A stretch of 64,000 nt of DNA from Candidatus Yanofskybacteria bacterium RIFCSPLOWO2_01_FULL_42_49 (GCA_001795615.1 MGKI01000004.1:22324-86323); one strand, 5' to 3'; positions 7,943 through 50,909 are shown, counted from the first letter of the stretch. A program made the numbers and translations. Notes: generated by a model not told the origin, from the sequence alone.

Positions 7943-8327
7943 TCCCCATCATTTGCCGGTTAATCCCGGCTTTTTAAATATTCAAGGCCATATTAAACTC
8001 AAACTCCAAAGAATTTTTTAAGAAATACCCCTAAATTTTGCCCAACAAAGTTTTCCCAATAGCGACACTTGACATTCATGCCCTGTTAGGGCTTGTACGA
8101 GATATGTTAAGATCCGATGGACTGGAACATGGGCCTCGGAGGCTGTCTGTGGCACTGAATTGCTAGATCTGAGAAAGGACCAGCAATATCTCACAATTTT
8201 AATTTCAACTATCGAGGGGGGTAACGCTTCTGTCGACGAAATCAAGAATTATGCCGATTCGATACGACAGGCCCAAGATAGACGCCTGAATCGTTCATTA
8301 GAGTAAAAACGCTTTTGCTATGCCGTT

Positions 8328-43009: not shown

Positions 43010-44443
43010 ATGCAATTACCACAAGAAGTAAAAAATATTTTAGAAAAGTTGTCTGAAGACGGTTATGAGGCCTACATCGTGGGCGGATGCGTGCGTGATT
43101 TGTTGTTAGGTAAAGAACCGAAGGATTGGGATATTACAACTAACGCCAAGCCGGAAGAGATACAAAAGGTATTTTCAGATACTGTTTACGAGAATAGCTT
43201 CGGGACTGTTGCAGTTAAAACAGATTCCGAAAATCCGGCCTTGGCGATAGTAGAGATAACGCCTTACCGTATCGAGGGAAAATATACGGACAAGAGACAT
43301 CCGGACGAGATTAGATTTGCGGATAAACTTGAAAACGACCTCTCTCGCAGGGATTTCACAATAAACGCACTGGCCATGAATGTTGATGGAAAAATTATTG
43401 ATAATTTTAACGGACAGAAAGACATAAAAAATAAAGTGATAAGAACCGTTGGAATTCCAAAAGAAAGATTTAGCGAGGATGCCTTGCGTTTGTTTCGAGC
43501 TGTTCGTTTTGCCACAATATTCGGCTTTAGCATAGAAGAAGGCACTTTGGCCGCCGTAAAAGAAAATGCCGAGTGGCTTCGTGCTATTTCAAAAGAAAGG
43601 ATAAGAGATGAATTTGTTAAAATAATCGAGGCTGATAACGCTTACGAAGGAATACTGTTGCTTGAAGAAACAGGTCTTCTGCAATACATACTCCCGGAAT
43701 TAAGAGAGGGTATCGGCGTGGGACAAAATTTACACCATATTTATACCGTATGGGAGCACAATATCCTGGCATTGAAATATGCCGCCAGGAAAAAATACTC
43801 TCTGGAAATCCGGCTCGGATCTTTGTTCCACGACATAGGCAAACCTAGAACAAAAAGAGGAGAAGGTAAATATTCAACCTTTTACGGACACGATGTTGTG
43901 GGCGCCAGAATAACGGCAGAAATAATGGAGCGGCTGCGGTTTTCTAAAGAGATTTCAGAAAAAGTCATTAAGTTGGTACGATACCACCTCTTTTACTATA
44001 ATGTCGGCGAAGTTACAGAATCGTCAGTAAGAAGATTGCTGACAAATGTCGGACCGGAAAATATTGAAGACTTGATCAGAGTAAGGGAGGGAGACAGAAT
44101 CGGTTCCGGAAGGCCAAAAGCAGTGCCATATAAACTTCGCCATTTGAAATATGTGATAGACAAAGTTTCTAATGATCCCATATCGGTCAAAATGCTCGAA
44201 ATCGATGGCAACGAGTTAATGAAAGAGCTAGGAGTAAAACCTGGACCAAAAGTCGGTCTTATATTAAACTACCTCCTTGCTGAAGTGCTGAGTGACCCCG
44301 CTAAAAATAAGAAAAATAGCCTTAAACAAAGAATTCATGAATTAGATAAAAAAACACCGGGGGAACTGAAAAAGGCGCTTGAACAAATAGAGAAAGCTAT
44401 CGAGGAGGAAGAAAAGGAAAGGATGAAAAAATATTATGTATAG
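43010..44443 (+). CDS. cca: CCA-adding tRNA nucleotidyltransferase with HD domain
   Basis: Pol-beta NTase head GGCVRDLLLG..DWD, C-terminal HD (HD..H...D). Confidence 0.85.
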   Translation: MQLPQEVKNILEKLSEDGYEAYIVGGCVRDLLLGKEPKDWDITTNAKPEEIQKVFSDTVYENSFGTVAVKTDSENPALAIVEITPYRIEGKYTDKRHPDEIRFADKLENDLSRRDFTINALAMNVDGKIIDNFNGQKDIKNKVIRTVGIPKERFSEDALRLFRAVRFATIFGFSIEEGTLAAVKENAEWLRAISKERIRDEFVKIIEADNAYEGILLLEETGLLQYILPELREGIGVGQNLHHIYTVWEHNILALKYAARKKYSLEIRLGSLFHDIGKPRTKRGEGKYSTFYGHDVVGARITAEIMERLRFSKEISEKVIKLVRYHLFYYNVGEVTESSVRRLLTNVGPENIEDLIRVREGDRIGSGRPKAVPYKLRHLKYVIDKVSNDPISVKMLEIDGNELMKELGVKPGPKVGLILNYLLAEVLSDPAKNKKNSLKQRIHELDKKTPGELKKALEQIEKAIEEEEKERMKKYYV

Positions 44444-44870
44444 AATAAAAATCAAAAGATTTGATAAAAACTTTCCCTTACCGGAATACAAGACAAAAGG
44501 AGCGGCCGGTGTGGATTTTTCAACTCGGGAAACCATAACCGTCAAGCCCGGAAAGATTGGCGTCATACCGCTCAATCTGGCAGTAGCAATACCCAAAGGC
44601 CACTTCATGCTGTTATGCGCCCGCAGTTCTACTTACAAGCTTGGCCTCACGATGATAAACGGTGTCGGCGTCATTGATTCTGACTTTTGCGGAGATGGGG
44701 ATGAATTTAAATTTGCGGTTCAAAATTTCACCAAAAAGACCGTAACCGTTGAAAGGGGGACTCGCATCGCCCAAGGGATATTTGTAAAATTCACTCGTGC
44801 TACATGGCAAGAGGTGGGAAAAATGAAAGCCAAAACACGCGGGGGATTTGGAAGTACGGGAAATAAGTAA
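44436..44870 (+). CDS. dut: dUTP diphosphatase
   Basis: dUTPase beta-barrel motifs (KGAAGVDFS, GVIDSDF, RIAQ). Confidence 0.75.
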   Translation: MYRIKIKRFDKNFPLPEYKTKGAAGVDFSTRETITVKPGKIGVIPLNLAVAIPKGHFMLLCARSSTYKLGLTMINGVGVIDSDFCGDGDEFKFAVQNFTKKTVTVERGTRIAQGIFVKFTRATWQEVGKMKAKTRGGFGSTGNK

Positions 44871-44923: not shown

Positions 44924-44995
44924 CAGGCCGTAGTGTACCGGCAACACGCTATCCTCGGGCGATAGAGATAGAGGGTTCGATTCCCTCCGGCCTGA
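44924..44995 (+). tRNA. tRNA-Pro (CGG)
   Basis: Acceptor CAGGCCG/CGGCCUG, D-stem GUGU/ACAC, anticodon stem CUAUC/GAUAG with loop CUCGGGC, T-arm GAGGG-UUCGAUU-CCCUC. Confidence 0.8.
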
Positions 44996-45037
44996 CTTGG
45001 TGTTTATAACTTTAAGTTCAAAAACTTCCATGCTGAC

Positions 45038-45940
45038 TTGTTCTTTGATATAATGACAGAGATGTTATCGACGGTAAAAGTTAGGTGTCATTTTTGTCGT
45101 AAACCATTCCTGACAAAAAAGGCTTATTTTGTTTTTAATAAAGAGGTCGGTTATCATTCATTTTGTTCCAAGGAGTGCGGATACAACCATAGAAAAACCG
45201 GTAAATGGCTCATCTGCGGAAACCCTAATTGCGAGAAAAAAATTTATAGAAACTTGGCTGGCATCTCTCCGTTCAACTATTGTTCCAAGTCTTGTGCCGC
45301 AATAGTTAACAATCAAAAATATCCCAAACATCCTCCGAGATATTGTGCATATTCTGGATGCAAGAACATGGTAAAAAGAGTCGGGTCTCCTTTTTGCTCT
45401 ATAAAATGCGGCAAACTAAGCAAGTTTAAATACACCAAAGAAGAAATCGTCACCTTAATTAAAGAACATGTCGCTAAAACAAATAGGGTACCCCCAAAAA
45501 GGGAGGTTCCTGAAATATCACACAAAGCCATACATTTATTTGGTTCGTGGAACAATGCTCTTACCATTGCCGGTTTAATACCCAACCGTTCTCACAACAA
45601 TAGAATGTATAAACGTCTGAATGGAAAAGCAGCAGATGGGCATCTCTGCGATTCTGTTTCAGAAATACTTATTGATAACTGGCTGCACAAGAATAAAGTT
45701 AAGCACTCAAGAAATGTACCGTATCCAAAAACTAATCATGTTGCGGACTGGGCAGTAAACAACGACAAGGTTTTTGTTGAATACTTTGGACTTGCTAACG
45801 ACAGTCCAAGATATGACCGCACAATAAAAGAAAAGAAATTGCTGTGCAGAAATAACCGAATCAAACTAATTGAAATATATCCAAAAGATCTGTATCCTAA
45901 AAACTTACTCGACAAAAGATTGTTTCCCGTTTTAAAATAG
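45038..45940 (+). CDS. Multi-zinc-ribbon protein with a homing-endonuclease-associated repeat and a C-terminal Vsr/DUF559-like PD-(D/E)xK nuclease domain
   Basis: Four CxxC...CSKxC units; FGSWNNALTIAGL (HE-associated repeat); C-terminal ADWAV..VFVEYFG..YDRTIKEKKLLCRNNRIKLIEI (DUF559-like). Confidence 0.6.
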   Translation: MFFDIMTEMLSTVKVRCHFCRKPFLTKKAYFVFNKEVGYHSFCSKECGYNHRKTGKWLICGNPNCEKKIYRNLAGISPFNYCSKSCAAIVNNQKYPKHPPRYCAYSGCKNMVKRVGSPFCSIKCGKLSKFKYTKEEIVTLIKEHVAKTNRVPPKREVPEISHKAIHLFGSWNNALTIAGLIPNRSHNNRMYKRLNGKAADGHLCDSVSEILIDNWLHKNKVKHSRNVPYPKTNHVADWAVNNDKVFVEYFGLANDSPRYDRTIKEKKLLCRNNRIKLIEIYPKDLYPKNLLDKRLFPVLK

Positions 45941-46010
45941 GGCCCGTCGTATAGTGGCAATACGTAGCATTCGCATTGCTAAAACGCGGTTTCGATTACC
46001 GCCGGGTCCA
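45940..46010 (+). tRNA. tRNA-Ala (CGC)
   Basis: G3-U70 in acceptor GGGCCCG/CGGGUCC; anticodon stem UAGCA/UGCUA with loop UUCGCAU; T-arm GCGGU-UUCGAUU-ACCGC. Confidence 0.8.
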
Positions 46011-46149
46011 CAACGTGTGATAAATCAGCAGACGACTGCTCATCTATCGAGTAAATAAGCCCTAATTTGGCGGTTCCAAATCCGCTAATTTTCAGTTTTA
46101 AAAAACTGGTAAGAAATAGGCCTTTTGGAACCATAAAATTTCAACTCTG

Positions 46150-47121
46150 TTGTTTTTTTCAACAGCTAGTATAGATTTATACATCGTTAGTATTTTGAAA
46201 ATTGGAGGAATATTGAAAAATAGAACAGCTATTATCGTGCATGGCGGTGCTATCAAGGGAGCATTTGCCGCTGGTGTAATGTATTATTTATCTAGGATCG
46301 GAATACAAGCCGCGGATATTATTGTAGGTACATCTTCATGTGTTCCAACTGCAGCGTATTTTACCAGCAGACAATTTGAGTTTATAAAGAATATCTGGCT
46401 TCGCGAGGTTGGTTCTAAAGATTTTATTAACCGCTTCAATCTATTGGCAGGCAAACCAATTTTCAATTTACCCCACCTCATTAACACTGTTTTTCAACAG
46501 AGATATCCCTTAAATGTAGGGGATATTGTCGGATCAGAGTCATTATTTCTAGTTCCACTTTATAACTATCGGGAGGGGCGAGTAGAATTTATTAATAATC
46601 GCCAGGAGCAGTTTAAAAAGGACTCCTGGAAAGTTCTCCAGGCAGCACTAACTGTTCACGACCAAGATATTGTACGAGAAGAGGGGCTGGAACAATTTGT
46701 AGATGCTGATCTCGACCCATTTGCTTTGTACCGACAACAAGTCATCCCGAATGGACATAACGTTCTAGTAGTCATTAATCACAAAGACTTAGATTATACC
46801 CTAAAACGGTGGCTGGGTGTGCGAATTTATCGTCTTCTGCAATCAAAACACTTCCCAGATGGAGTAAAAGATAAGTTAAAAGATCGAGGTGAACTAATCA
46901 AAAGTGGATTGAAACTTTTTCAAAAATTTGAAGAAGACTATCGACCTATCCTCATCAGCCCACCAGAAACGATGAACTTAAATACGAGCACATTAATTAC
47001 TAGAAATAAAGATAGGCTTAATTACTTATTCGAGATGGGGGTAAGATCGGTTATGGATATAGACAAGCAAGTTTTGTCAGATTTTGTTTCTAGGTCACAA
47101 GAATTGCTAAATACTTCTTAA
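46150..47121 (+). CDS. Patatin-like phospholipase family protein (degenerate serine elbow); likely TTG start near 46213 after GGAGG
   Basis: HGGAIKGAF (GGxK/RG oxyanion motif), GTSSC in place of GxSxG, later Asp-rich DADLD. Confidence 0.5.
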   Translation: MFFSTASIDLYIVSILKIGGILKNRTAIIVHGGAIKGAFAAGVMYYLSRIGIQAADIIVGTSSCVPTAAYFTSRQFEFIKNIWLREVGSKDFINRFNLLAGKPIFNLPHLINTVFQQRYPLNVGDIVGSESLFLVPLYNYREGRVEFINNRQEQFKKDSWKVLQAALTVHDQDIVREEGLEQFVDADLDPFALYRQQVIPNGHNVLVVINHKDLDYTLKRWLGVRIYRLLQSKHFPDGVKDKLKDRGELIKSGLKLFQKFEEDYRPILISPPETMNLNTSTLITRNKDRLNYLFEMGVRSVMDIDKQVLSDFVSRSQELLNTS

Positions 47122-47228
47122 ATACCCAATGTGGGTATTTTTGTTTTATAAGATATAGTGAGTGGCGGGGTAGGGTAAGAACTTACAACAACATTGTAAA
47201 TCCGAGTTTAATTTGCTATGATTGCTCT

Positions 47229-47453
47229 ATGAAGAGAATCATTCAATTCCACATCTCCAAGGGTGATAAATACTATACTGCCGAAGGGGTTGATTTACCT
47301 GTAGTTACCCAGGGTAAAACCTTAGATGAATTAGCGGTAAATATTCAGGAGGCAGTTGACCTGCATTTAGAGGGCGAGAATCCTGCTGATTTTGACATTG
47401 CTCCGAATCCCTCTGTTTTGATGAATTTTGAACTTCCTCAGATTCATGCCTAG
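47229..47453 (+). CDS. hicB: HicB family antitoxin (UPF0150)
   Basis: 74 aa RNase-H-like fold typical of small HicB; overlaps hicA. Confidence 0.6.
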   Translation: MKRIIQFHISKGDKYYTAEGVDLPVVTQGKTLDELAVNIQEAVDLHLEGENPADFDIAPNPSVLMNFELPQIHA

Positions 47454-47688
47454 ACTCAAGGTCTTATCAGGTGAAAATGTGATAAAGATTCTTGAGTCTT
47501 TTAATTTTGCCATAATTTCCCAGAAGGGCAGTCATGTTAAACTTCGTAGAACCATAAAGAAAAATAATCAAACACTTACTATCCCCAATCACAAAGAGTT
47601 AGATAGGGGAACTCTTCGGGCCATTTTTAATCAGGCTTCAAAATACATCTCCGAATCAGAACTCATGCCCCATTTTTATAATGAGTAA
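47446..47688 (+). CDS. hicA: HicA family mRNA interferase toxin
   Basis: GSHVKLRR...TIPNHKELDRGTLRAIFNQA (HicA/YcfA motif). Confidence 0.7.
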   Translation: MPRLKVLSGENVIKILESFNFAIISQKGSHVKLRRTIKKNNQTLTIPNHKELDRGTLRAIFNQASKYISESELMPHFYNE

Positions 47689-47759
47689 AGTTTGAATTTG
47701 TTGCCAGACTTTCAATTCTTCGATAAGCTGGTTCCAGTTGAGTCTCACGAAGTCCACCA

Positions 47760-50700
47760 ATGGATAAAATTTTCTACGACTTAAACGACAAGCAAGCCGA
47801 GGCCGTCAAAATAATTGACGGCCCGGTTTTAGTTATTTCTGGTCCAGGTTCGGGAAAGACCAAATGTCTTACTCACAGAGTCGCGCACCTAATTTCTACG
47901 GGCGTAAAACCCGAAAACATTCTTTGCCTGACCTTCACCAACAAGGCGGCCGGTGAGATGCGAGAACGAGTTTCTCGCTTACTTGAGGTTAAACCTCAAT
48001 TTAGCAGGGGACTAATTTTTGCGACTCCACTTATTGGGACATTCCACTCCATCGGCCTCAAAATTTTACGGCGAGAAATTCACCATCTCAATTACAGAAG
48101 CAACTTCACTATTTTTGATGCTGACGACCAGAAAAGTTTAGTCAAAAGAATAATCGCCGAGCTAGAGTTAGATAGTAAAAAAACCAACCCTAGCGCCGTA
48201 CTTTCCAGAATATCACGCCTAAAAACAGAATTTATTGAACCTAAAGACGCGCCTTCAGAAGAATTTTTTGAGAAAGTGGTGGGCAATATCTATAAGCGCT
48301 ACCAAGAAGAGTTAAAAAATCTTAACGCCGTTGATTTTGACGACCTCATTGTTCTTTGTGTGAAGATCTTTCAACAAAATTCGGAAACACTGAAAAAATA
48401 TCAGAATCTATGGAAATATATGCTCGTTGACGAGTATCAAGACACGAGCCGAGACCAATATGAATTTATATCCCTCCTAGCCAAGGCCAATCGCAATCTT
48501 TTTTGTATTGGAGACGACGCCCAGTGTTTACCGCCAAAGACCGAAGTTAAAACGGAAAAAGGGTTTAAAAATATTGAAGATATAGGGGTTGGGGAGACCA
48601 TATTGTCGCCAGCTGGCCTTGGGAATACATGCTATGCAATGGTTACAGGAACAAAAAAACGTTACTACAAGGGCCCTTTGCTGGAAATACAAACAAAACT
48701 TGGTTACAAACTAAGAAGTACACCCAACCATGTCACTTTCGGTAAGTTATTGCCGTCAAAAAACTTTTTCATTACTTATCTTATGTTCTCTGAAAAAATT
48801 GGCTACAGAATCGGCATAACTGTCGGTGAACGACATCCAAAAAGCAGTAAGCCGGCACTGGGACTGAATGTCAGAGCAAATCAGGAAAAGTCGGACAAAA
48901 TGTGGATACTTAAAATATCTCCCAGCCGCGCAGACGCTCAATATTGGGAAGCATACTATGCTTATAAATATGGCATCCCAACCACCATATTTTTCGCGGA
49001 TCGGGGCAAGGGAGTAAGTAACAAGATGATTTTAACGCAGAAACATATAGATAATTTGTATAAAGCGATACCCTCCGCGGAAAGAGCGGCAAACTTAATG
49101 CTGGACGAATATATTTATCACGAATATCCTCACCACAGACCCCAAGCAACCGTGAGATATCAAACAAGAAGAATAGCGGTTAACTTAAACTACTTTGGAG
49201 CAGCCCCCGGACCACATATAAAAAACTCCTTATTCAGAGGTGCCAGGGTAAGCATTAACAATAGAAACGAAGATATTAAAAAACTACTAATCAAAGAAGG
49301 GTTTAATACCAGAAAAGGTAAGGCAAGCACGTGGCGCGTGGAAACTTCCAGGAGAGACAATGGCGACGCTGAATTATTGGCGCAAAAATTAAGTTCACTG
49401 TGCAACGTAGAAATATCTAAAAATGCGCTAATTACTGACTTAAGATTTAGCTTTCTGCCGACCTCTCAAATACATCCTCACATGACAATCCCCGTATTTA
49501 ACGGAAATAAAATAATTAACGATGAGGTAGTGGGAGTTAAAAAAACAAATTACAGCGGTTTTGTATACGACTTAAATATTAAAAGAACCCACACCTTTAT
49601 TGCTGACAACTTTCCTGTTCATAATTCGATTTACCAGTTTCGTCGAGCTGACATAAGAAACATACTTAACTTTCAAAAGGATTATCCTGACGCGAAGGTC
49701 GTAATGCTGGAACAAAACTACCGTTCAACCAAAAGCATCATCACCGCCGCTAGCCACTTGATAGCTAATAATAAAAATCAAGTATCCAAAGAGTTGTGGA
49801 CCGATAACAACGAGGGAGAGAAAATATTGGCCAAAGAACTTCTGAATGAACGGCAAGAAGCAGGTTTTATTGTATCCACAGTTAGAGACATGGTCAAAAA
49901 GGGGCGCAAACCAAATGACTTCGTGGTCTTATATCGCACCCATGCCCAATCCAGAGCTGTGGAGGAAGCACTCATATCAGCAGGATTTCCTTATCATATA
50001 GTCGGGGGCATCAAGTTCTATGAAAGAAAGGAAATTAAAGACATTCTTGCTTATCTTAAATTTCTAACAAACCCGGCTGATATCATCAGCTTTGAGAGAA
50101 TATATAATGTCCCTCCGCGGGGGATAGGAGCTGCTCTGCTAGAGAAAATCACAAAACGCCCCAGTACCAGAGCAGAGAACGGTACGGGGCACAGCAAATC
50201 ACAAAACACAAATAAAAACTCAAACGTTGACTTAAGAAAAAACCTAAAAGAAATGACGAGCAGTAAAGAACTCTCAAAAAGACAGCATGAGGCTATTAAA
50301 AGTTTTCACATCCTGTTAGAAGAAATAGCTAAGGAGGCCGACAAAAGCAAACTGACAAACTTAATAAAACATGTCATCAAATCAACCGATTACGAGAAAT
50401 ACTTAAAAGAAACATGGGCACCGGAAAACGCTGAAGAACGGCTGGAAAACCTTAAAGAACTTCTCACTGTCGCCAGAAAATACGATCCGCCGGCTGGCGG
50501 ACGCGAATCATGTTATGAAGGAATGGTTAGATTTCTTGAAGAGATTGCTTTGCTTCAAGATATGGACCGCGTTAAAAATACCGATAACAAAATAACTTTG
50601 ATGACCACCCACGCTTCCAAGGGCCTTGAATTCCCGGTTGTCTTTATCATTGGTCTTGAAGAAGGGTTGTTCCCTCACTCGAGAACGCTTTTTTATCCTG

Positions 50701-50909
50701 ACGAACTTGAAGAAGAAAGACGGCTTTGCTATGTAGCTATCACAAGAGCAAAAGAAAAACTAATCCTAACTTTTACGAAATATAGAAATATATTCGGCTC
50801 AACTCAAACTAATCTCCCGTCCAGGTTTCTAGGAGAGATACCGGCGCACCTTGCGTTATTTGAAACGGGCGGAGTCGATTTTAACGACGAAGATAAAATT
50901 TACTACTAA
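47760..50909 (+). CDS. uvrD: UvrD/PcrA family ATP-dependent DNA helicase with an in-frame intein
   Basis: Motif I GPGSGKT, motif II LVDEYQDT, motif III split as GDDAQ|intein|SIYQFRRAD, motif V/VI TTHASKGLEF...VAITRAK. Confidence 0.9.
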   Translation: MDKIFYDLNDKQAEAVKIIDGPVLVISGPGSGKTKCLTHRVAHLISTGVKPENILCLTFTNKAAGEMRERVSRLLEVKPQFSRGLIFATPLIGTFHSIGLKILRREIHHLNYRSNFTIFDADDQKSLVKRIIAELELDSKKTNPSAVLSRISRLKTEFIEPKDAPSEEFFEKVVGNIYKRYQEELKNLNAVDFDDLIVLCVKIFQQNSETLKKYQNLWKYMLVDEYQDTSRDQYEFISLLAKANRNLFCIGDDAQCLPPKTEVKTEKGFKNIEDIGVGETILSPAGLGNTCYAMVTGTKKRYYKGPLLEIQTKLGYKLRSTPNHVTFGKLLPSKNFFITYLMFSEKIGYRIGITVGERHPKSSKPALGLNVRANQEKSDKMWILKISPSRADAQYWEAYYAYKYGIPTTIFFADRGKGVSNKMILTQKHIDNLYKAIPSAERAANLMLDEYIYHEYPHHRPQATVRYQTRRIAVNLNYFGAAPGPHIKNSLFRGARVSINNRNEDIKKLLIKEGFNTRKGKASTWRVETSRRDNGDAELLAQKLSSLCNVEISKNALITDLRFSFLPTSQIHPHMTIPVFNGNKIINDEVVGVKKTNYSGFVYDLNIKRTHTFIADNFPVHNSIYQFRRADIRNILNFQKDYPDAKVVMLEQNYRSTKSIITAASHLIANNKNQVSKELWTDNNEGEKILAKELLNERQEAGFIVSTVRDMVKKGRKPNDFVVLYRTHAQSRAVEEALISAGFPYHIVGGIKFYERKEIKDILAYLKFLTNPADIISFERIYNVPPRGIGAALLEKITKRPSTRAENGTGHSKSQNTNKNSNVDLRKNLKEMTSSKELSKRQHEAIKSFHILLEEIAKEADKSKLTNLIKHVIKSTDYEKYLKETWAPENAEERLENLKELLTVARKYDPPAGGRESCYEGMVRFLEEIALLQDMDRVKNTDNKITLMTTHASKGLEFPVVFIIGLEEGLFPHSRTLFYPDELEEERRLCYVAITRAKEKLILTFTKYRNIFGSTQTNLPSRFLGEIPAHLALFETGGVDFNDEDKIYY
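48525..49625 (+). mobile_element. Intein (367 aa) inserted in helicase motif III of uvrD
   Basis: Starts at the Cys after GDDAQ (CLPPKTEV); block B TPNHVTF; ends ...FPVHN followed by Ser of the extein; the length is a multiple of 3. Confidence 0.8.

What the first reader, a model, noticed from the sequence alone, without database searches (positions are those of the whole stretch)
44924..47688. tRNA-punctuated accessory stretch: zinc-ribbon/HE-repeat/Vsr-like nuclease, patatin-like protein and hicBA
Between tRNA-Pro (44924-44995) and the helicase lie four elements. (i) 45038-45940 has a four-fold CxxC...CSKxC zinc-ribbon array, a homing-endonuclease-associated repeat (FGSWNNALTIAGL) and a DUF559/Vsr-like PD-(D/E)xK nuclease; its stop overlaps tRNA-Ala(CGC). 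(ii) A patatin-like phospholipase with a GTSSC elbow. (iii) HicB. (iv) HicA. Patatin-like lipases and PD-(D/E)xK nucleases are frequent anti-phage effectors, and tRNA genes are integration hot spots. The combination suggests a small defence or mobile island, or a free-standing homing endonuclease riding next to tRNAs.
Basis: partly seen in the sequence, partly recalled or inferred. Interest (0 to 1): 0.6.

Follow-up and report, generated by a model that had tools for sequence, protein, structure and literature searches.

The report
Homing-endonuclease-like gene tied to tRNA-Pro
The stretch holds two separate insertions at tRNA genes of a Candidate Phyla Radiation bacterium: a previously undescribed nuclease gene that sits beside the tRNA-Pro(CGG) gene in dozens of distant relatives yet is missing from close ones, as a selfish homing endonuclease would be, and an ordinary accessory pair (a patatin-like lipase and a HicAB toxin-antitoxin).

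Summary
All six features are at the stated coordinates. The nuclease protein has three zinc ribbons, not four. No HMM recognises its nuclease domain; only fold comparison does.

The "single island" reading is wrong. There are two independent insertions.

(1) ORF1 (45038/45062-45940) combines three zinc ribbons, an HNH_repeat and a Vsr-like nuclease fold. Its best solved-structure match is the homing endonuclease I-Bth0305I. In 54 of 56 evaluable loci from Paceibacteria and Microgenomates it lies within about 120 nt of the 3' end of tRNA-Pro(CGG), in either orientation. It is nevertheless sporadic: 1 of 6 loci in the window's closest clade, 0 of 7 in a wider sample. Exact empty sites exist where tRNA-Pro and tRNA-Ala(CGC) are 5-44 nt apart. 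Orphan tRNA-Pro halves, broken at the anticodon, flank the cassette.
- Best explanation (confidence about 0.62): a free-standing homing endonuclease that targets the tRNA-Pro(CGG) locus. This is a new variant of a known kind.

(2) The patatin-like gene and hicBA (46012-47759) are a species-specific insertion between tRNA-Ala(CGC) and uvrD. They match no known defence system.

Close relatives carry a GIY-YIG gene plus a complete tRNA-Ala inside a broken tRNA-Ala(CGC).

The parts
44924..44996 (+). tRNA-Pro(CGG), the gene that ORF1 homologues abut in nearly all loci
   Evidence: ARAGORN; Rfam tRNA, 56.6 bits; linkage shown.
44997..45037 (+). Possible decayed second copy of the tRNA-Pro 3' half (TTGGTG...AAGTTCAAAAACTTCCATGCTGAC). 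Weak in this window, clear in relatives.
   Evidence: Local alignment to the resident tRNA 3' end, 14 of 22-24 positions. nhmmer does NOT detect it. Homologous position in L001, L003 and L004. Significant remnants in other loci.
45046..45054 (+). Extended -10 box TGATATAAT, 7 nt before ATG 45062 (implies a leaderless or near-leaderless ORF1 mRNA)
   Evidence: Sequence read directly. The same TGnTATAAT-N6-8-ATG arrangement is seen in relatives L004, L035 and L042, and a TGnTATAAT box lies upstream of ORF1 in type B loci. Inference only.
45038..45940 (+). ORF1: homing-endonuclease-like protein. The maximal ORF is 300 aa; the likely start is ATG 45062, giving 292 aa. Zinc ribbons: residues 17-47, 60-86 and 103-124. 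HNH_repeat: residues 132-180. Vsr/EDxHD-like nuclease domain: residues ~193-285.
45614..45937 (+). C-terminal nuclease domain of ORF1. Invariant residues: D200 G201 H202, S206, S208 E209, D213 N214 W215, H223, D237, E248 (nearly invariant), G251, K266 (nearly invariant).
   Evidence: Domain-only AlphaFold2 model: pLDDT 86, pTM 0.79. Best Foldseek PDB hit is 3r3p_B, the I-Bth0305I catalytic domain (prob 0.99, TM 0.60/0.69), followed by TnsA, tRNA-splicing endonuclease, PspGI and Vsr. Conservation including non-CPR homologues. PADLOC PDC-S69 3e-14 and phrog_22655 1.6e-18.
45940..46011 (+). tRNA-Ala(CGC). Its first base is the last base of the ORF1 stop codon. It is the usual right-hand neighbour of the ORF1 cassette.
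   Evidence: 97% identical to the tRNA-Ala of the empty-site relative L160.
46067..46088 (+). Terminator-like hairpin followed by a T run, after tRNA-Ala
46213..47121 (+). Patatin-like phospholipase (302 aa from TTG 46213; the maximal ORF starts at 46150), followed by a terminator-like hairpin at 47120-47140
   Evidence: Pfam PF01734: E=2.4e-5, 25.1 bits, below the cut-off. Only 26 homologues. G60xS62, D185 and GGxxKG are conserved. Homologues lie in unrelated contexts. Absent from all ORF1 loci. Terminator.
47229..47453 (+). HicB-like antitoxin (74 aa)
   Evidence: Weak HMM support (Pfam HicB_lk_antitox E=0.012; phrog_497 E=0.004). It overlaps hicA by 8 nt.
47446..47688 (+). HicA toxin (80 aa from ATG 47446; the maximal ORF starts at 47428)
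   Evidence: Pfam HicA_toxin E=3e-16; phrog_353 1.3e-12.
47705..47757 (+). Possible decayed 3' half of the original tRNA-Ala(CGC), left directly before the uvrD start codon (...AAGTCCACCA|ATG). Weak.
   Evidence: In relatives L001, L160 and L164 the intact tRNA-Ala ends 0-4 nt before the uvrD ATG. Alignment of the junctions. Not significant against shuffles and not found by nhmmer.

Best explanation
ORF1 is a free-standing homing endonuclease gene whose target is the tRNA-Pro(CGG) locus of Candidate Phyla Radiation bacteria.

Proposed mechanism:
- The protein binds DNA through three zinc ribbons and an HNH_repeat helical module.
- It cuts with a C-terminal Vsr-like (EDxHD-type) nuclease domain.
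- The cut falls in genomes that lack the gene, within or just after the tRNA-Pro(CGG) gene. The break points seen in fragments lie at the anticodon, positions 34-36.
- The break is repaired from a genome that carries the cassette, which copies the ~1 kb single-gene cassette in. In many cases a whole or partial tRNA-Pro copy comes with it and keeps the essential tRNA intact. The displaced half of the old tRNA is left behind as a fragment.

Shown here: the domain make-up and fold; the linkage to tRNA-Pro(CGG) in both orientations; the sporadic distribution with exact empty sites; the fragments and their foreign origin.

Inferred: DNA cleavage, the exact target, and repair-mediated spread.

The patatin-like gene and hicBA are unrelated accessory cargo, inserted later between tRNA-Ala(CGC) and uvrD in this species.
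For: Protein
- HNH_repeat is found in 67 of 67 members, and the 12 zinc-binding cysteines are invariant.
- The AlphaFold2 models score pLDDT 87.5 (full length) and 86 (domain only).
- The best PDB match of the nuclease domain is the catalytic domain of the homing endonuclease I-Bth0305I (prob 0.99, TM 0.60/0.69). The next matches (TnsA, tRNA-splicing endonuclease, PspGI, Vsr) also have the restriction-endonuclease-like fold.
- The N-terminal DNA-binding plus C-terminal Vsr-like layout is that of the EDxHD family (PMC3239194).

Linkage
- 54 of 56 evaluable loci from 58 species have tRNA-Pro(CGG) within ~120 nt. This includes Davies- and Woesebacteria, whose neighbouring genes are otherwise different.
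- 34 loci have the tRNA upstream on the same strand. 20 are convergent, and in 12 of these the stop codon is 2-6 nt from the tRNA 3' end.

The gene is not core
- Unbiased sampling through the neighbouring cca gene gives 0 of 7 metagenome loci and 1 of 6 loci in the window's closest clade.
- In empty sites tRNA-Pro and tRNA-Ala(CGC) are 5, 5, 35, 11 and 44 nt apart (L075, L078, L076, L160, L164). L160 otherwise has the window's gene order exactly.
- Empty-site genomes nest among carriers in the cca tree.
- Filled/empty pairs give exact indel borders: L009/L071 and L026/L075.

Footprints
- Orphan tRNA-Pro fragments are strongly enriched beside ORF1: 11 within 14.5 kb against 12 in 518 kb, Poisson P~1e-13.
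- Their borders fall at tRNA positions 34-35.
- The fragments resemble the tRNA-Pro of other genomes (up to 82-90%) more than the intact gene in their own locus (50-72%).

Relatives
- Phage proteins combine an HNH_repeat with the same nuclease domain. One of them lies between two tape-measure-like ORFs.
- The nuclease domain is a C-terminal module in 2,265 protein clusters with varied N-termini, several of which again carry an HNH_repeat.
- Close relatives L159 and L163 carry a GIY-YIG gene plus a complete tRNA-Ala inside the anticodon loop of a broken tRNA-Ala(CGC). This shows the same theme next door.
Against: - There is no biochemical evidence, and the cleavage site is unknown.
- No sequence model links the nuclease domain to Vsr, DUF559 or EDxHD proteins. 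Foldseek E-values are modest (0.028). The residue-level match to the E-D-x-H-D motif was not established.
- Almost all copies are intact: only L057 is clearly truncated. The 45-77% identity with many invariant residues shows strong purifying selection, which also fits a host-beneficial gene.
- ORF1 and cca divergence correlate (r=0.54), so much of the inheritance is vertical.
- If the target is the anticodon region, it is unclear how the intact tRNA-Pro beside the gene escapes cutting.
- The arrangement in this window (tRNA, then remnant, then gene) is not produced by a single simple insertion.
- L161 has the window's tRNA-Pro allele (99% identical) without ORF1.
- tRNA-Pro is not clearly more divergent than the neighbouring tRNA-Arg.
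- The window's own remnants are not statistically supported.
Confidence: 0.62

Rival explanations
1. ORF1 is a host-beneficial nuclease, for instance an anti-phage or anti-plasmid effector or a DNA-repair enzyme. It merely sits in a tRNA-linked insertion hot spot, having been delivered there by integrases or recombination acting in trans.
For: - The nuclease domain matches the PADLOC defence candidate PDC-S69 (E=3e-14). It also occurs in ~290-aa Vibrio and Dehalogenimonas proteins with ANT/KilAC N-termini.
- Nearly all copies are intact and strongly conserved.
- The tRNA-Pro/tRNA-Ala interval also takes up unrelated cargo: a 422-aa ORF in L077, an XRE-type regulator and other genes in L012 and L014, metK in L162, and patatin/hicBA here.
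- Fragment borders in the anticodon loop are also typical of tyrosine-integrase crossover sites (own knowledge).
Against: - The cassette is usually a single gene of ~0.9 kb that exactly fills the gap between the two tRNAs, in either orientation. No integrase is nearby.
- It is tied to one isoacceptor, tRNA-Pro(CGG), across classes whose other neighbouring genes differ. Passive cargo would not keep such a link.
- The HNH_repeat is a homing-endonuclease-associated module, and the best structural match is a homing endonuclease.
Confidence: 0.2
2. ORF1 acts on RNA. It would be a tRNA-Pro(CGG)-specific binding or processing factor, co-located with its substrate gene.
For: - The top full-length Foldseek matches include mitoribosomal proteins of Toxoplasma and Tetrahymena (prob 0.99 and 0.63). 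tRNA-splicing endonuclease is among the domain hits.
- A Vsr-like protein, FASTKD4, is reported to act on mitochondrial mRNA (title of PMC11879112).
- FCS-type zinc fingers can bind RNA (own knowledge).
- The ORF1 stop codon overlaps tRNA-Ala, so the mRNA and the tRNA may share a transcript.
Against: - The gene is absent from most close relatives that keep the same tRNA-Pro(CGG), including L161, whose tRNA is 99% identical.
- In 20 loci the gene is convergent with the tRNA, so co-transcription is not conserved.
- Flanking tRNA gene fragments and exact indels point to events at the DNA level.
Confidence: 0.07
3. The whole 44924-47688 stretch is one defence or mobile island integrated at tRNA genes.
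For: - tRNA genes flank the elements.
- Patatin-like lipases, PD-(D/E)xK nucleases and toxin-antitoxin pairs are frequent in defence islands (own knowledge).
- GC content is slightly lower (0.37-0.39) than in the flanks (0.40-0.44).
Against: - ORF1 occurs in 58 species loci without patatin, hicA or hicB.
- Patatin homologues sit in unrelated contexts.
- PADLOC recognises no system.
- The two segments are separated by an intact tRNA-Ala(CGC) and a terminator.
- There is no integrase.
Confidence: 0.04

Closest known systems
I-Bth0305I and the EDxHD family of homing endonucleases (Taylor et al. 2011, PMC3239194; family first seen in 'fractured genes', PMC2677866)
   Same: - Bipartite layout: an N-terminal DNA-binding region and a C-terminal Vsr-like nuclease domain.
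- The I-Bth0305I catalytic domain is the best PDB match.
- Relatives occur in phages.
   Different: - No detectable sequence similarity.
- The DNA-binding part is three Cys4 zinc ribbons plus an HNH_repeat instead of NUMOD motifs.
- The gene is free-standing in a bacterial chromosome, next to a tRNA gene, not inside a group I intron or intein.
- The E-D-x-H-D residues were not mapped.
Free-standing homing endonucleases of T-even phages and 'intronless homing' (SegB in the T4 tRNA gene cluster, SegF, SegG, MobE; PMC2988022, PMC2790892, PMC13096335 for SegB; details from own knowledge)
   Same: - A stand-alone endonuclease gene sits in an intergenic spacer beside the conserved gene it targets.
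- Spread is by break repair with co-conversion of flanking DNA.
- SegB is associated with tRNA genes.
   Different: - The nuclease families differ (GIY-YIG, HNH).
- Those genes live in phage genomes, not cellular chromosomes.
- Duplicated or broken tRNA halves at the borders are not a described feature there.
Vsr very-short-patch repair endonuclease / DUF559 (PF04480)
   Same: Restriction-endonuclease-like fold: 1vsr is recovered by Foldseek at prob 0.63-0.69.
   Different: - No HMM match in any of 67 members.
- No sign of a repair context.
- Additional DNA-binding domains are present.
Genomic islands integrated in tRNA genes by tyrosine integrases (own knowledge)
   Same: - Insertion at a tRNA gene.
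- A direct repeat of the tRNA 3' part.
- Break points in the anticodon loop.
   Different: - No integrase.
- The unit is a single ~0.9 kb gene.
- The intact tRNA and the leftover fragment belong to different tRNA-Pro lineages over the whole gene, not just the 3' part.
Mobile endonuclease ORFs in fungal mitochondria that insert near the 3' end of a gene and bring a replacement 3' end, leaving the old one as a pseudogene (e.g. Allomyces atp6; own knowledge, not checked here)
   Same: An endonuclease gene travels with a substitute copy of the part of the essential gene that it displaces.
   Different: There the target is a protein-coding gene in an organelle, and the endonucleases are of the LAGLIDADG or GIY-YIG families.
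HicAB type II toxin-antitoxin; patatin-like phospholipases
   Same: - HicA HMM E=3e-16, with a small upstream overlapping HicB-like gene.
- Patatin Ser-Asp dyad and oxyanion motif are conserved.
   Different: - The elbow is GTSSC rather than GxSxG.
- The patatin protein scores below Pfam's cut-off.
- Neither gene is part of a recognised multi-gene defence system.

Membership tests
EDxHD (I-Bth0305I-type) homing endonucleases | C-terminal catalytic domain with the Vsr-like variant of the restriction-endonuclease fold | tested here: met
   Domain-only model: 3r3p_B ranks first (prob 0.99, TM 0.60/0.69, rmsd 3.8 over 102 columns), and 1vsr is also hit. The full-length model gives the same. The alpha-beta-beta-beta-alpha-beta order appears in the model.
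EDxHD (I-Bth0305I-type) homing endonucleases | Composite catalytic motif E...D.x.H.D conserved across the family (PMC3239194) | tested here: inconclusive
   Invariant acidic and His residues exist (D200, H202, D205, E209, D213, H223, D237, E248). No residue-level structural alignment was available, and sequence or profile searches do not align the families.
EDxHD (I-Bth0305I-type) homing endonucleases | N-terminal DNA-binding region with NUMOD-type motifs preceding the nuclease | tested here: not met
   An N-terminal DNA-binding region is present, but it is built from three Cys4 zinc ribbons (zf-FCS-like) and an HNH_repeat. No NUMOD family was reported.
Homing endonuclease genes in general | Sporadic presence/absence at one conserved genomic site, with precise empty sites in relatives | tested here: met
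Homing endonuclease genes in general | Site-specific double-strand cleavage of the empty allele and copying of the gene into it | not testable with these tools
   Needs biochemistry or genetics.
   No hit at E<=1 in the window protein or in any of 67 homologues. NCBIfam gives none.
HNH_repeat (PF18780) | Match above Pfam's gathering score | tested here: met
   34.4 bits against a cut-off of 26; present in 67 of 67 members.
Patatin-like phospholipase (PF01734) | Match above Pfam's gathering score | tested here: not met
   25.1 bits against a cut-off of 27.7, and only residues 31-114 match. Thirteen of the 26 homologues carry a precomputed PF01734 hit.
Patatin-like phospholipase (PF01734) | Catalytic Ser (G-x-S-x-G elbow), Asp of the dyad, and a Gly-rich oxyanion motif | tested here: met
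   G60 and S62 are at least 90% conserved, D185 is invariant, and HGGAIKG is conserved. The last elbow position varies (C/S/G/A).
HicAB toxin-antitoxin | HicA toxin HMM match and an adjacent small HicB antitoxin | tested here: met
   HicA: 59.7 bits against a cut-off of 27. HicB is only weak (16.1 bits against 27; phrog_497 E=0.004), but it overlaps hicA by 8 nt.
Known anti-phage defence systems (PADLOC-DB 2.0) | HMM matches to the components of a described system | tested here: not met
   The only match is ORF1's C-terminal domain to the single-gene candidates PDC-S69 and PDC-S68. Nothing matches patatin or HicB, and HicA matches at only E=0.043.
Integrase-borne tRNA-integrated genomic island | An integrase gene, and direct repeats of the tRNA 3' end at both borders | tested here: not met
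   There is no integrase between 44924 and 47760. The putative repeats in the window are not significant.

The most novel reading that the evidence does not exclude
These CPR genomes harbour a class of 'cut-and-replace' homing elements.
- A nuclease gene travels together with its own complete, presumably cleavage-resistant copy of a tRNA gene. Here the pairs are the ORF1 type with tRNA-Pro(CGG) and, in close relatives, a GIY-YIG gene with tRNA-Ala(CGC).
- The element inserts into the anticodon loop of the resident tRNA gene of the same identity. It destroys that gene and substitutes its own.
- This would be a natural counterpart of engineered cleave-and-rescue gene drives.
- It would also explain why the nuclease gene and the tRNA gene are inseparable across phylum-level distances.
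Probability: 0.3. Interest if true: 0.8.

Novelty: new variant of a known kind. Interest (0 to 1): 0.62.

Why it matters
- If ORF1 is what it appears to be, it defines an undescribed homing-endonuclease lineage: a new DNA-binding architecture on a Vsr-like nuclease that no Pfam or NCBIfam model covers.
- It lives in cellular chromosomes of the Candidate Phyla Radiation and is aimed at a single tRNA isoacceptor gene.
- It would show that selfish nucleases shape tRNA gene clusters in these reduced genomes. That would explain stray tRNA halves and local gene-order variation in metagenome-assembled genomes.
- It would also add a compact, possibly long-target nuclease to the engineering repertoire.
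- The observed pattern raises a testable idea: some homing elements preserve an essential, unspliceable target by carrying a spare copy of it. The pattern is an intact tRNA beside the nuclease gene, a broken tRNA half of a different lineage, and the parallel GIY-YIG/tRNA-Ala case.
- For annotation, the family's 460+ 'hypothetical proteins' could be named.
- The patatin/hicBA part is ordinary accessory cargo.

Tried and rejected
- A PDB sequence search with the protein and with a 67-sequence profile found only an MYM zinc finger.
- Pfam and NCBIfam gave nothing for the nuclease domain, nor for its non-CPR relatives.
- I first read 46067-46088 as a tRNA T-arm remnant. It is better explained as a terminator hairpin.
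- The window's own putative tRNA-Pro and tRNA-Ala remnants are not detected by nhmmer, and the tRNA-Ala one is not above shuffles. They are reported as weak.
- I tested whether tRNA-Pro(CGG) evolves faster than neighbouring tRNAs, as a sign of repeated replacement. It is more divergent than tRNA-Ala(CGC) and tRNA-Lys but not than tRNA-Arg, so there is no clear support.
- I tested congruence of ORF1 with cca. The correlation is moderate (r=0.54), and a few pairs have ORF1 more similar than cca. This is suggestive of transfer but not decisive.
- Rfam finds no group I intron around the phage homologue or in the interrupted tRNA-Ala of L159 and L163.
- The tape-measure gene in phage L157 could not be shown to be one split gene. 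The Pfam domain is complete in the first ORF.
- 'Core housekeeping gene' was rejected after unbiased sampling.
- 'Simple inversion' as the origin of the two orientations was rejected, because the remnant keeps the tRNA's orientation in both types.

Full report
**What is in the window**

The closest database proteins are named Candidatus Yanofskybacteria (Parcubacteria, Candidate Phyla Radiation). The order of features on the + strand is as follows:
- tRNA-Ala(GGC), on the minus strand
- tRNA-Arg(CCT)
- cca, 43010-44443
- dut, 44436-44870
- tRNA-Pro(CGG), 44924-44996
- ORF1, 45038-45940
- tRNA-Ala(CGC), 45940-46011
- a patatin-like gene
- hicB and hicA
- a UvrD-type helicase, 47760-50909, that carries an intein

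The ORF1 stop codon TAG shares its G with the first base of tRNA-Ala.

Three points need correction:
- There are three Cys4 zinc ribbons, not four.
- No HMM (Pfam, NCBIfam, or a PDB sequence profile) recognises the C-terminal domain as DUF559 or Vsr.
- The patatin and HicB assignments are below the curated cut-offs. The patatin family does keep its catalytic Gly-x-Ser, Asp and oxyanion motifs.

**ORF1, the protein**

All 67 aligned homologues carry the homing-endonuclease-associated HNH_repeat and the twelve invariant cysteines.

The AlphaFold2 models are confident: pLDDT 87.5 for the full length, and 86 with pTM 0.79 for residues 186-300. The C-terminal domain has the alpha-beta-beta-beta-alpha-beta order of restriction-endonuclease-like nucleases.

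Its best match among solved structures is the catalytic domain of the homing endonuclease I-Bth0305I (3r3p_B: prob 0.99, TM 0.60/0.69). TnsA, tRNA-splicing endonuclease, PspGI and Vsr follow.

I-Bth0305I is the prototype of the EDxHD family. That family has an N-terminal DNA-binding region, a C-terminal Vsr-like nuclease, dimerisation through the nuclease domain, and a pseudo-palindromic core target (PMC3239194). ORF1 shares the layout and the fold. It does not share detectable sequence, and its DNA-binding modules differ.

The nuclease domain is a widespread C-terminal module. It is found in 2,265 clusters at E<=1e-3, and only 15 clusters reach 1e-30. Several of these proteins again have an HNH_repeat in front of it. 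Vibrio and Dehalogenimonas versions have ANT/KilAC DNA-binding N-termini and correspond to the PADLOC candidate PDC-S69.

Phage contigs encode relatives with Myb-like, HNH_repeat and nuclease domains. One of these lies between two tape-measure-like ORFs.

**ORF1, the linkage to tRNA-Pro(CGG)**

A scan of one genome per species returned 58 CPR loci. They include Yanofsky-, Nealson-, Gribaldo- and Kaiserbacteria, Davies- and Woesebacteria, and WWE3.

- In 54 of 56 evaluable loci the gene lies within about 120 nt of the 3' end of tRNA-Pro(CGG).
- There are two arrangements.
  - In 34 loci, including this window, the tRNA lies upstream on the same strand.
  - In 20 loci the gene is convergent with the tRNA. 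In 12 of these its stop codon is only 2-6 nt from the tRNA 3' end.
- In both arrangements the gene is on the 3' side of the tRNA.
- The exceptions are L013, where a tRNA-Pro lies 323 nt away, and the WWE3 locus, which has tRNA-Pro(GGG).
- In Paceibacteria, cca precedes the tRNA and tRNA-Ala(CGC) usually follows the cassette. In Microgenomates the other neighbours differ, but tRNA-Pro(CGG) stays.

**ORF1 is not a core gene**

I sampled the locus without reference to ORF1, through the neighbouring cca gene.

- Among metagenome contigs, none of 7 loci with tRNA-Pro(CGG) after cca has ORF1. In L075, L078 and L076 the tRNA-Pro and tRNA-Ala(CGC) genes are 5, 5 and 35 nt apart.
- Six contigs have a cca 77-82% identical to the window's, which is closer than any ORF1-selected locus. 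Only L162 among them has ORF1.
- L160 has the window's order exactly, but with nothing between the tRNAs: tRNA-Ala(GGC), tRNA-Arg(CCT), cca, dut, tRNA-Pro, 11 nt, tRNA-Ala(CGC), 4 nt, uvrD. L164 is the same without dut.
- In a cca tree the empty-site genomes nest among carriers.
- Two filled/empty pairs give exact borders.
  - L026 against L075: the extra DNA lies precisely between the tRNA-Pro 3' end and the tRNA-Ala 5' end.
  - L009 against L071: similarity stops at tRNA-Pro position ~36 and resumes at the downstream gene. The extra DNA is ORF1 plus a second tRNA-Pro 3' half.

The family has 460 detected members, whereas at least 7,916 cca homologues were found in the same database. So the comparison is only rough.

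**Footprints at the borders**

- Orphan pieces of tRNA-Pro are strongly concentrated next to ORF1. There are 11 nhmmer hits of at least 7 bits within 130 nt of the gene ends (14.5 kb in all), against 12 in the remaining 518 kb. The expected number is 0.34, giving P~1e-13. Three of the 11 are real tRNAs that ARAGORN missed.
- The clear pieces are 3' halves that begin at tRNA position 34-35, in L009, L046, L015, L014, L011, L017 and L056.
- Three loci (L023, L025, L030) have 5' pieces (positions 1-26/28) just upstream of the intact tRNA.
- The 3' pieces keep the tRNA's orientation in both gene arrangements, so the two arrangements are not related by a simple inversion.
- The pieces are more similar to the tRNA-Pro(CGG) of other genomes (up to 82-90%) than to the intact tRNA in their own locus (50-72%; own-locus rank 6 to 63 of 64, and 24 or lower for 11 of the 12 remnants). 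The intact gene and the broken one therefore come from different tRNA-Pro lineages.
- In this window the corresponding 41 nt (44997-45037) are recognisable only by eye and through L001, L003 and L004. nhmmer does not find them.

**How it most likely works**

The simplest account of all this is a free-standing homing endonuclease.

- What is shown here: the domain make-up and fold, the site linkage, the sporadic distribution with exact empty sites, the fragments, and their foreign origin.
- What is inferred: that the protein cuts the tRNA-Pro(CGG) region of genomes lacking it, and that repair copies the gene in.
- The anticodon stem-loop is an inverted repeat in DNA, and EDxHD enzymes are reported to act as dimers on pseudo-palindromic cores. 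A cut in the anticodon region is therefore plausible.
- In that case the element must supply a tRNA-Pro copy that is not cut. The different-lineage intact tRNAs are compatible with this, but I could not prove it.
- Open problems are listed under evidence against. They include mostly intact copies, partly vertical inheritance (r=0.54), L161 with the same tRNA allele but no ORF1, and the tRNA-remnant-gene order in this window.

**A parallel case in close relatives**

In L159 and L163 an outer tRNA-Ala(CGC) gene is interrupted after anticodon position 35 by about 400 nt. This insert carries two things:
- an 83-aa GIY-YIG gene (Pfam E=6.6e-16), which has an internal stop in L163;
- a complete inner tRNA-Ala(CGC).

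A second insert of ~42-45 nt lies in the T loop. The joined outer pieces of L159 give a perfect tRNA-Ala like that of L164. Rfam finds no group I intron.

This is a second example of a nuclease gene with a whole tRNA copy inside the broken tRNA of the same identity. Alternatively, it is an unusual tRNA intron.

**The patatin-like gene and hicBA**

- None of the 58 ORF1 loci, nor the six close cca-sampled loci, has these genes. In relatives the tRNA-Ala(CGC) ends 0-59 nt before uvrD. The 1,748 nt at 46012-47759 are therefore an insertion in this lineage.
- The insertion is shared by a 99.3%-identical contig, L150. That contig also has a 21-nt in-frame deletion in ORF1.
- The patatin family is small (26 clusters) and sits in unrelated contexts, once beside a RelB/YafQ pair.
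- Terminator-like hairpins separate the transcription units.
- PADLOC recognises no system.
- A possible leftover of the old tRNA-Ala 3' end lies just before uvrD, but it is not statistically supported.
- This part is ordinary accessory cargo. A defence role cannot be judged from sequence.

**Comparison with what is known, and novelty**

The closest known kinds are:
- the EDxHD homing endonucleases (same fold and layout; membership unproven);
- the free-standing endonucleases of T-even phages, with intronless homing, including the tRNA-cluster gene segB.

Full-text searches for HNH_repeat/PF18780, and for homing endonucleases with Patescibacteria/CPR and tRNA, found no description of this family or of its tRNA-Pro linkage. 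The library is incomplete, so this is absence of evidence only.

I rate the finding a new variant of a known kind. Interest is 0.62. Confidence in the homing-endonuclease explanation is 0.62.

Noticed in passing
L159:3058-3565 and L163:5481-5995 (close relatives of the window; cca 82% and 79% identical): An outer tRNA-Ala(CGC) gene is interrupted after anticodon nt 35 by ~400 nt. The insert carries a GIY-YIG ORF and a complete inner tRNA-Ala(CGC) set in a long hairpin, and it is bounded by TCCCGAT...ATCGGGA. A second insert of ~42-45 nt in the T loop also ends in TATCGGGA. The joined outer pieces make a perfect tRNA-Ala. This is either a nuclease-plus-spare-tRNA element or an unusual tRNA intron. 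No group I intron is found by Rfam.
   Followed up: partly
window:47760-50909 (intein about residues 258-622, nt ~48531-49625): The UvrD/PcrA-type helicase carries an intein (Intein_splicing, Hint). The intein is absent from the orthologues of all relatives examined, where uvrD is 654-661 aa and the tblastn halves abut. This is another selfish element at the same locus.
   Followed up: partly
window:45441-45461 versus L150:~2214: A 99.3%-identical contig from another sample has a 21-nt in-frame deletion. It removes seven residues (EIVTLIK) from the first helix of the HNH_repeat of ORF1. This is a strain-level polymorphism in the DNA-binding module.
   Followed up: yes
window:45938-45940 / 45940: The ORF1 stop codon TAG overlaps base 1 of tRNA-Ala(CGC), and the only terminator-like hairpin comes after the tRNA (46067-46088). 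If the two are co-transcribed, RNase P cleavage would leave the mRNA ending in UA, without a complete stop codon.
   Followed up: no
L012:5709-5912, L014:2030-2227 and other convergent-type loci (L016, L019, L025, L028-L031): In a subset of loci a highly conserved 65-67-aa XRE-type helix-turn-helix gene is transcribed divergently from ORF1. Further variable cargo lies beyond it: a 292-aa nuclease-like ORF in L012 and a 246-aa ORF in L014. In L014 the tRNA-Pro 3' remnant lies 1.4 kb away, so the inserted unit can be larger than one gene.
   Followed up: partly
L162:6433-6463 and 8180-8211: Two orphan 5' fragments of tRNA-Ala(CGC) (positions 1-31/32) are present, one directly after the ORF1 stop. 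A 116-aa ORF and metK lie between them and the complete tRNA-Ala at 8237-8310. The tRNA-Ala(CGC) anticodon loop appears to be a second insertion hot spot.
   Followed up: partly
L157:4671-5639 (IMG/VR contig): A 322-aa phage protein (Myb-like, HNH_repeat and the same nuclease domain) sits between two long tape-measure-like ORFs. Rfam detects no intron.
   Followed up: partly
P0141 (homologue of the patatin-like protein): One 392-aa homologue, 74% identical over 54% of the query, carries a LAGLIDADG_3 domain (PF14528). This suggests an intein or endonuclease insertion in a patatin-like gene.
   Followed up: no
L162:1-1182: A tyrosine recombinase (Phage_integrase) gene is itself interrupted by an intein with a LAGLIDADG domain, about 4 kb upstream of cca in a close relative.
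   Followed up: no
window versus L151, L159, L160, L161 (tRNA genes around cca): The four tRNA genes of this cluster show mosaic similarity between close relatives. For example, window against L151 gives Ala(GGC) 99%, Arg(CCT) 88% and Pro(CGG) 67%. Window against L160 gives Ala(CGC) 97% and Pro 68%. L161 shares the window's tRNA-Pro at 99%, although its cca is only 74% identical in DNA.
   Followed up: partly
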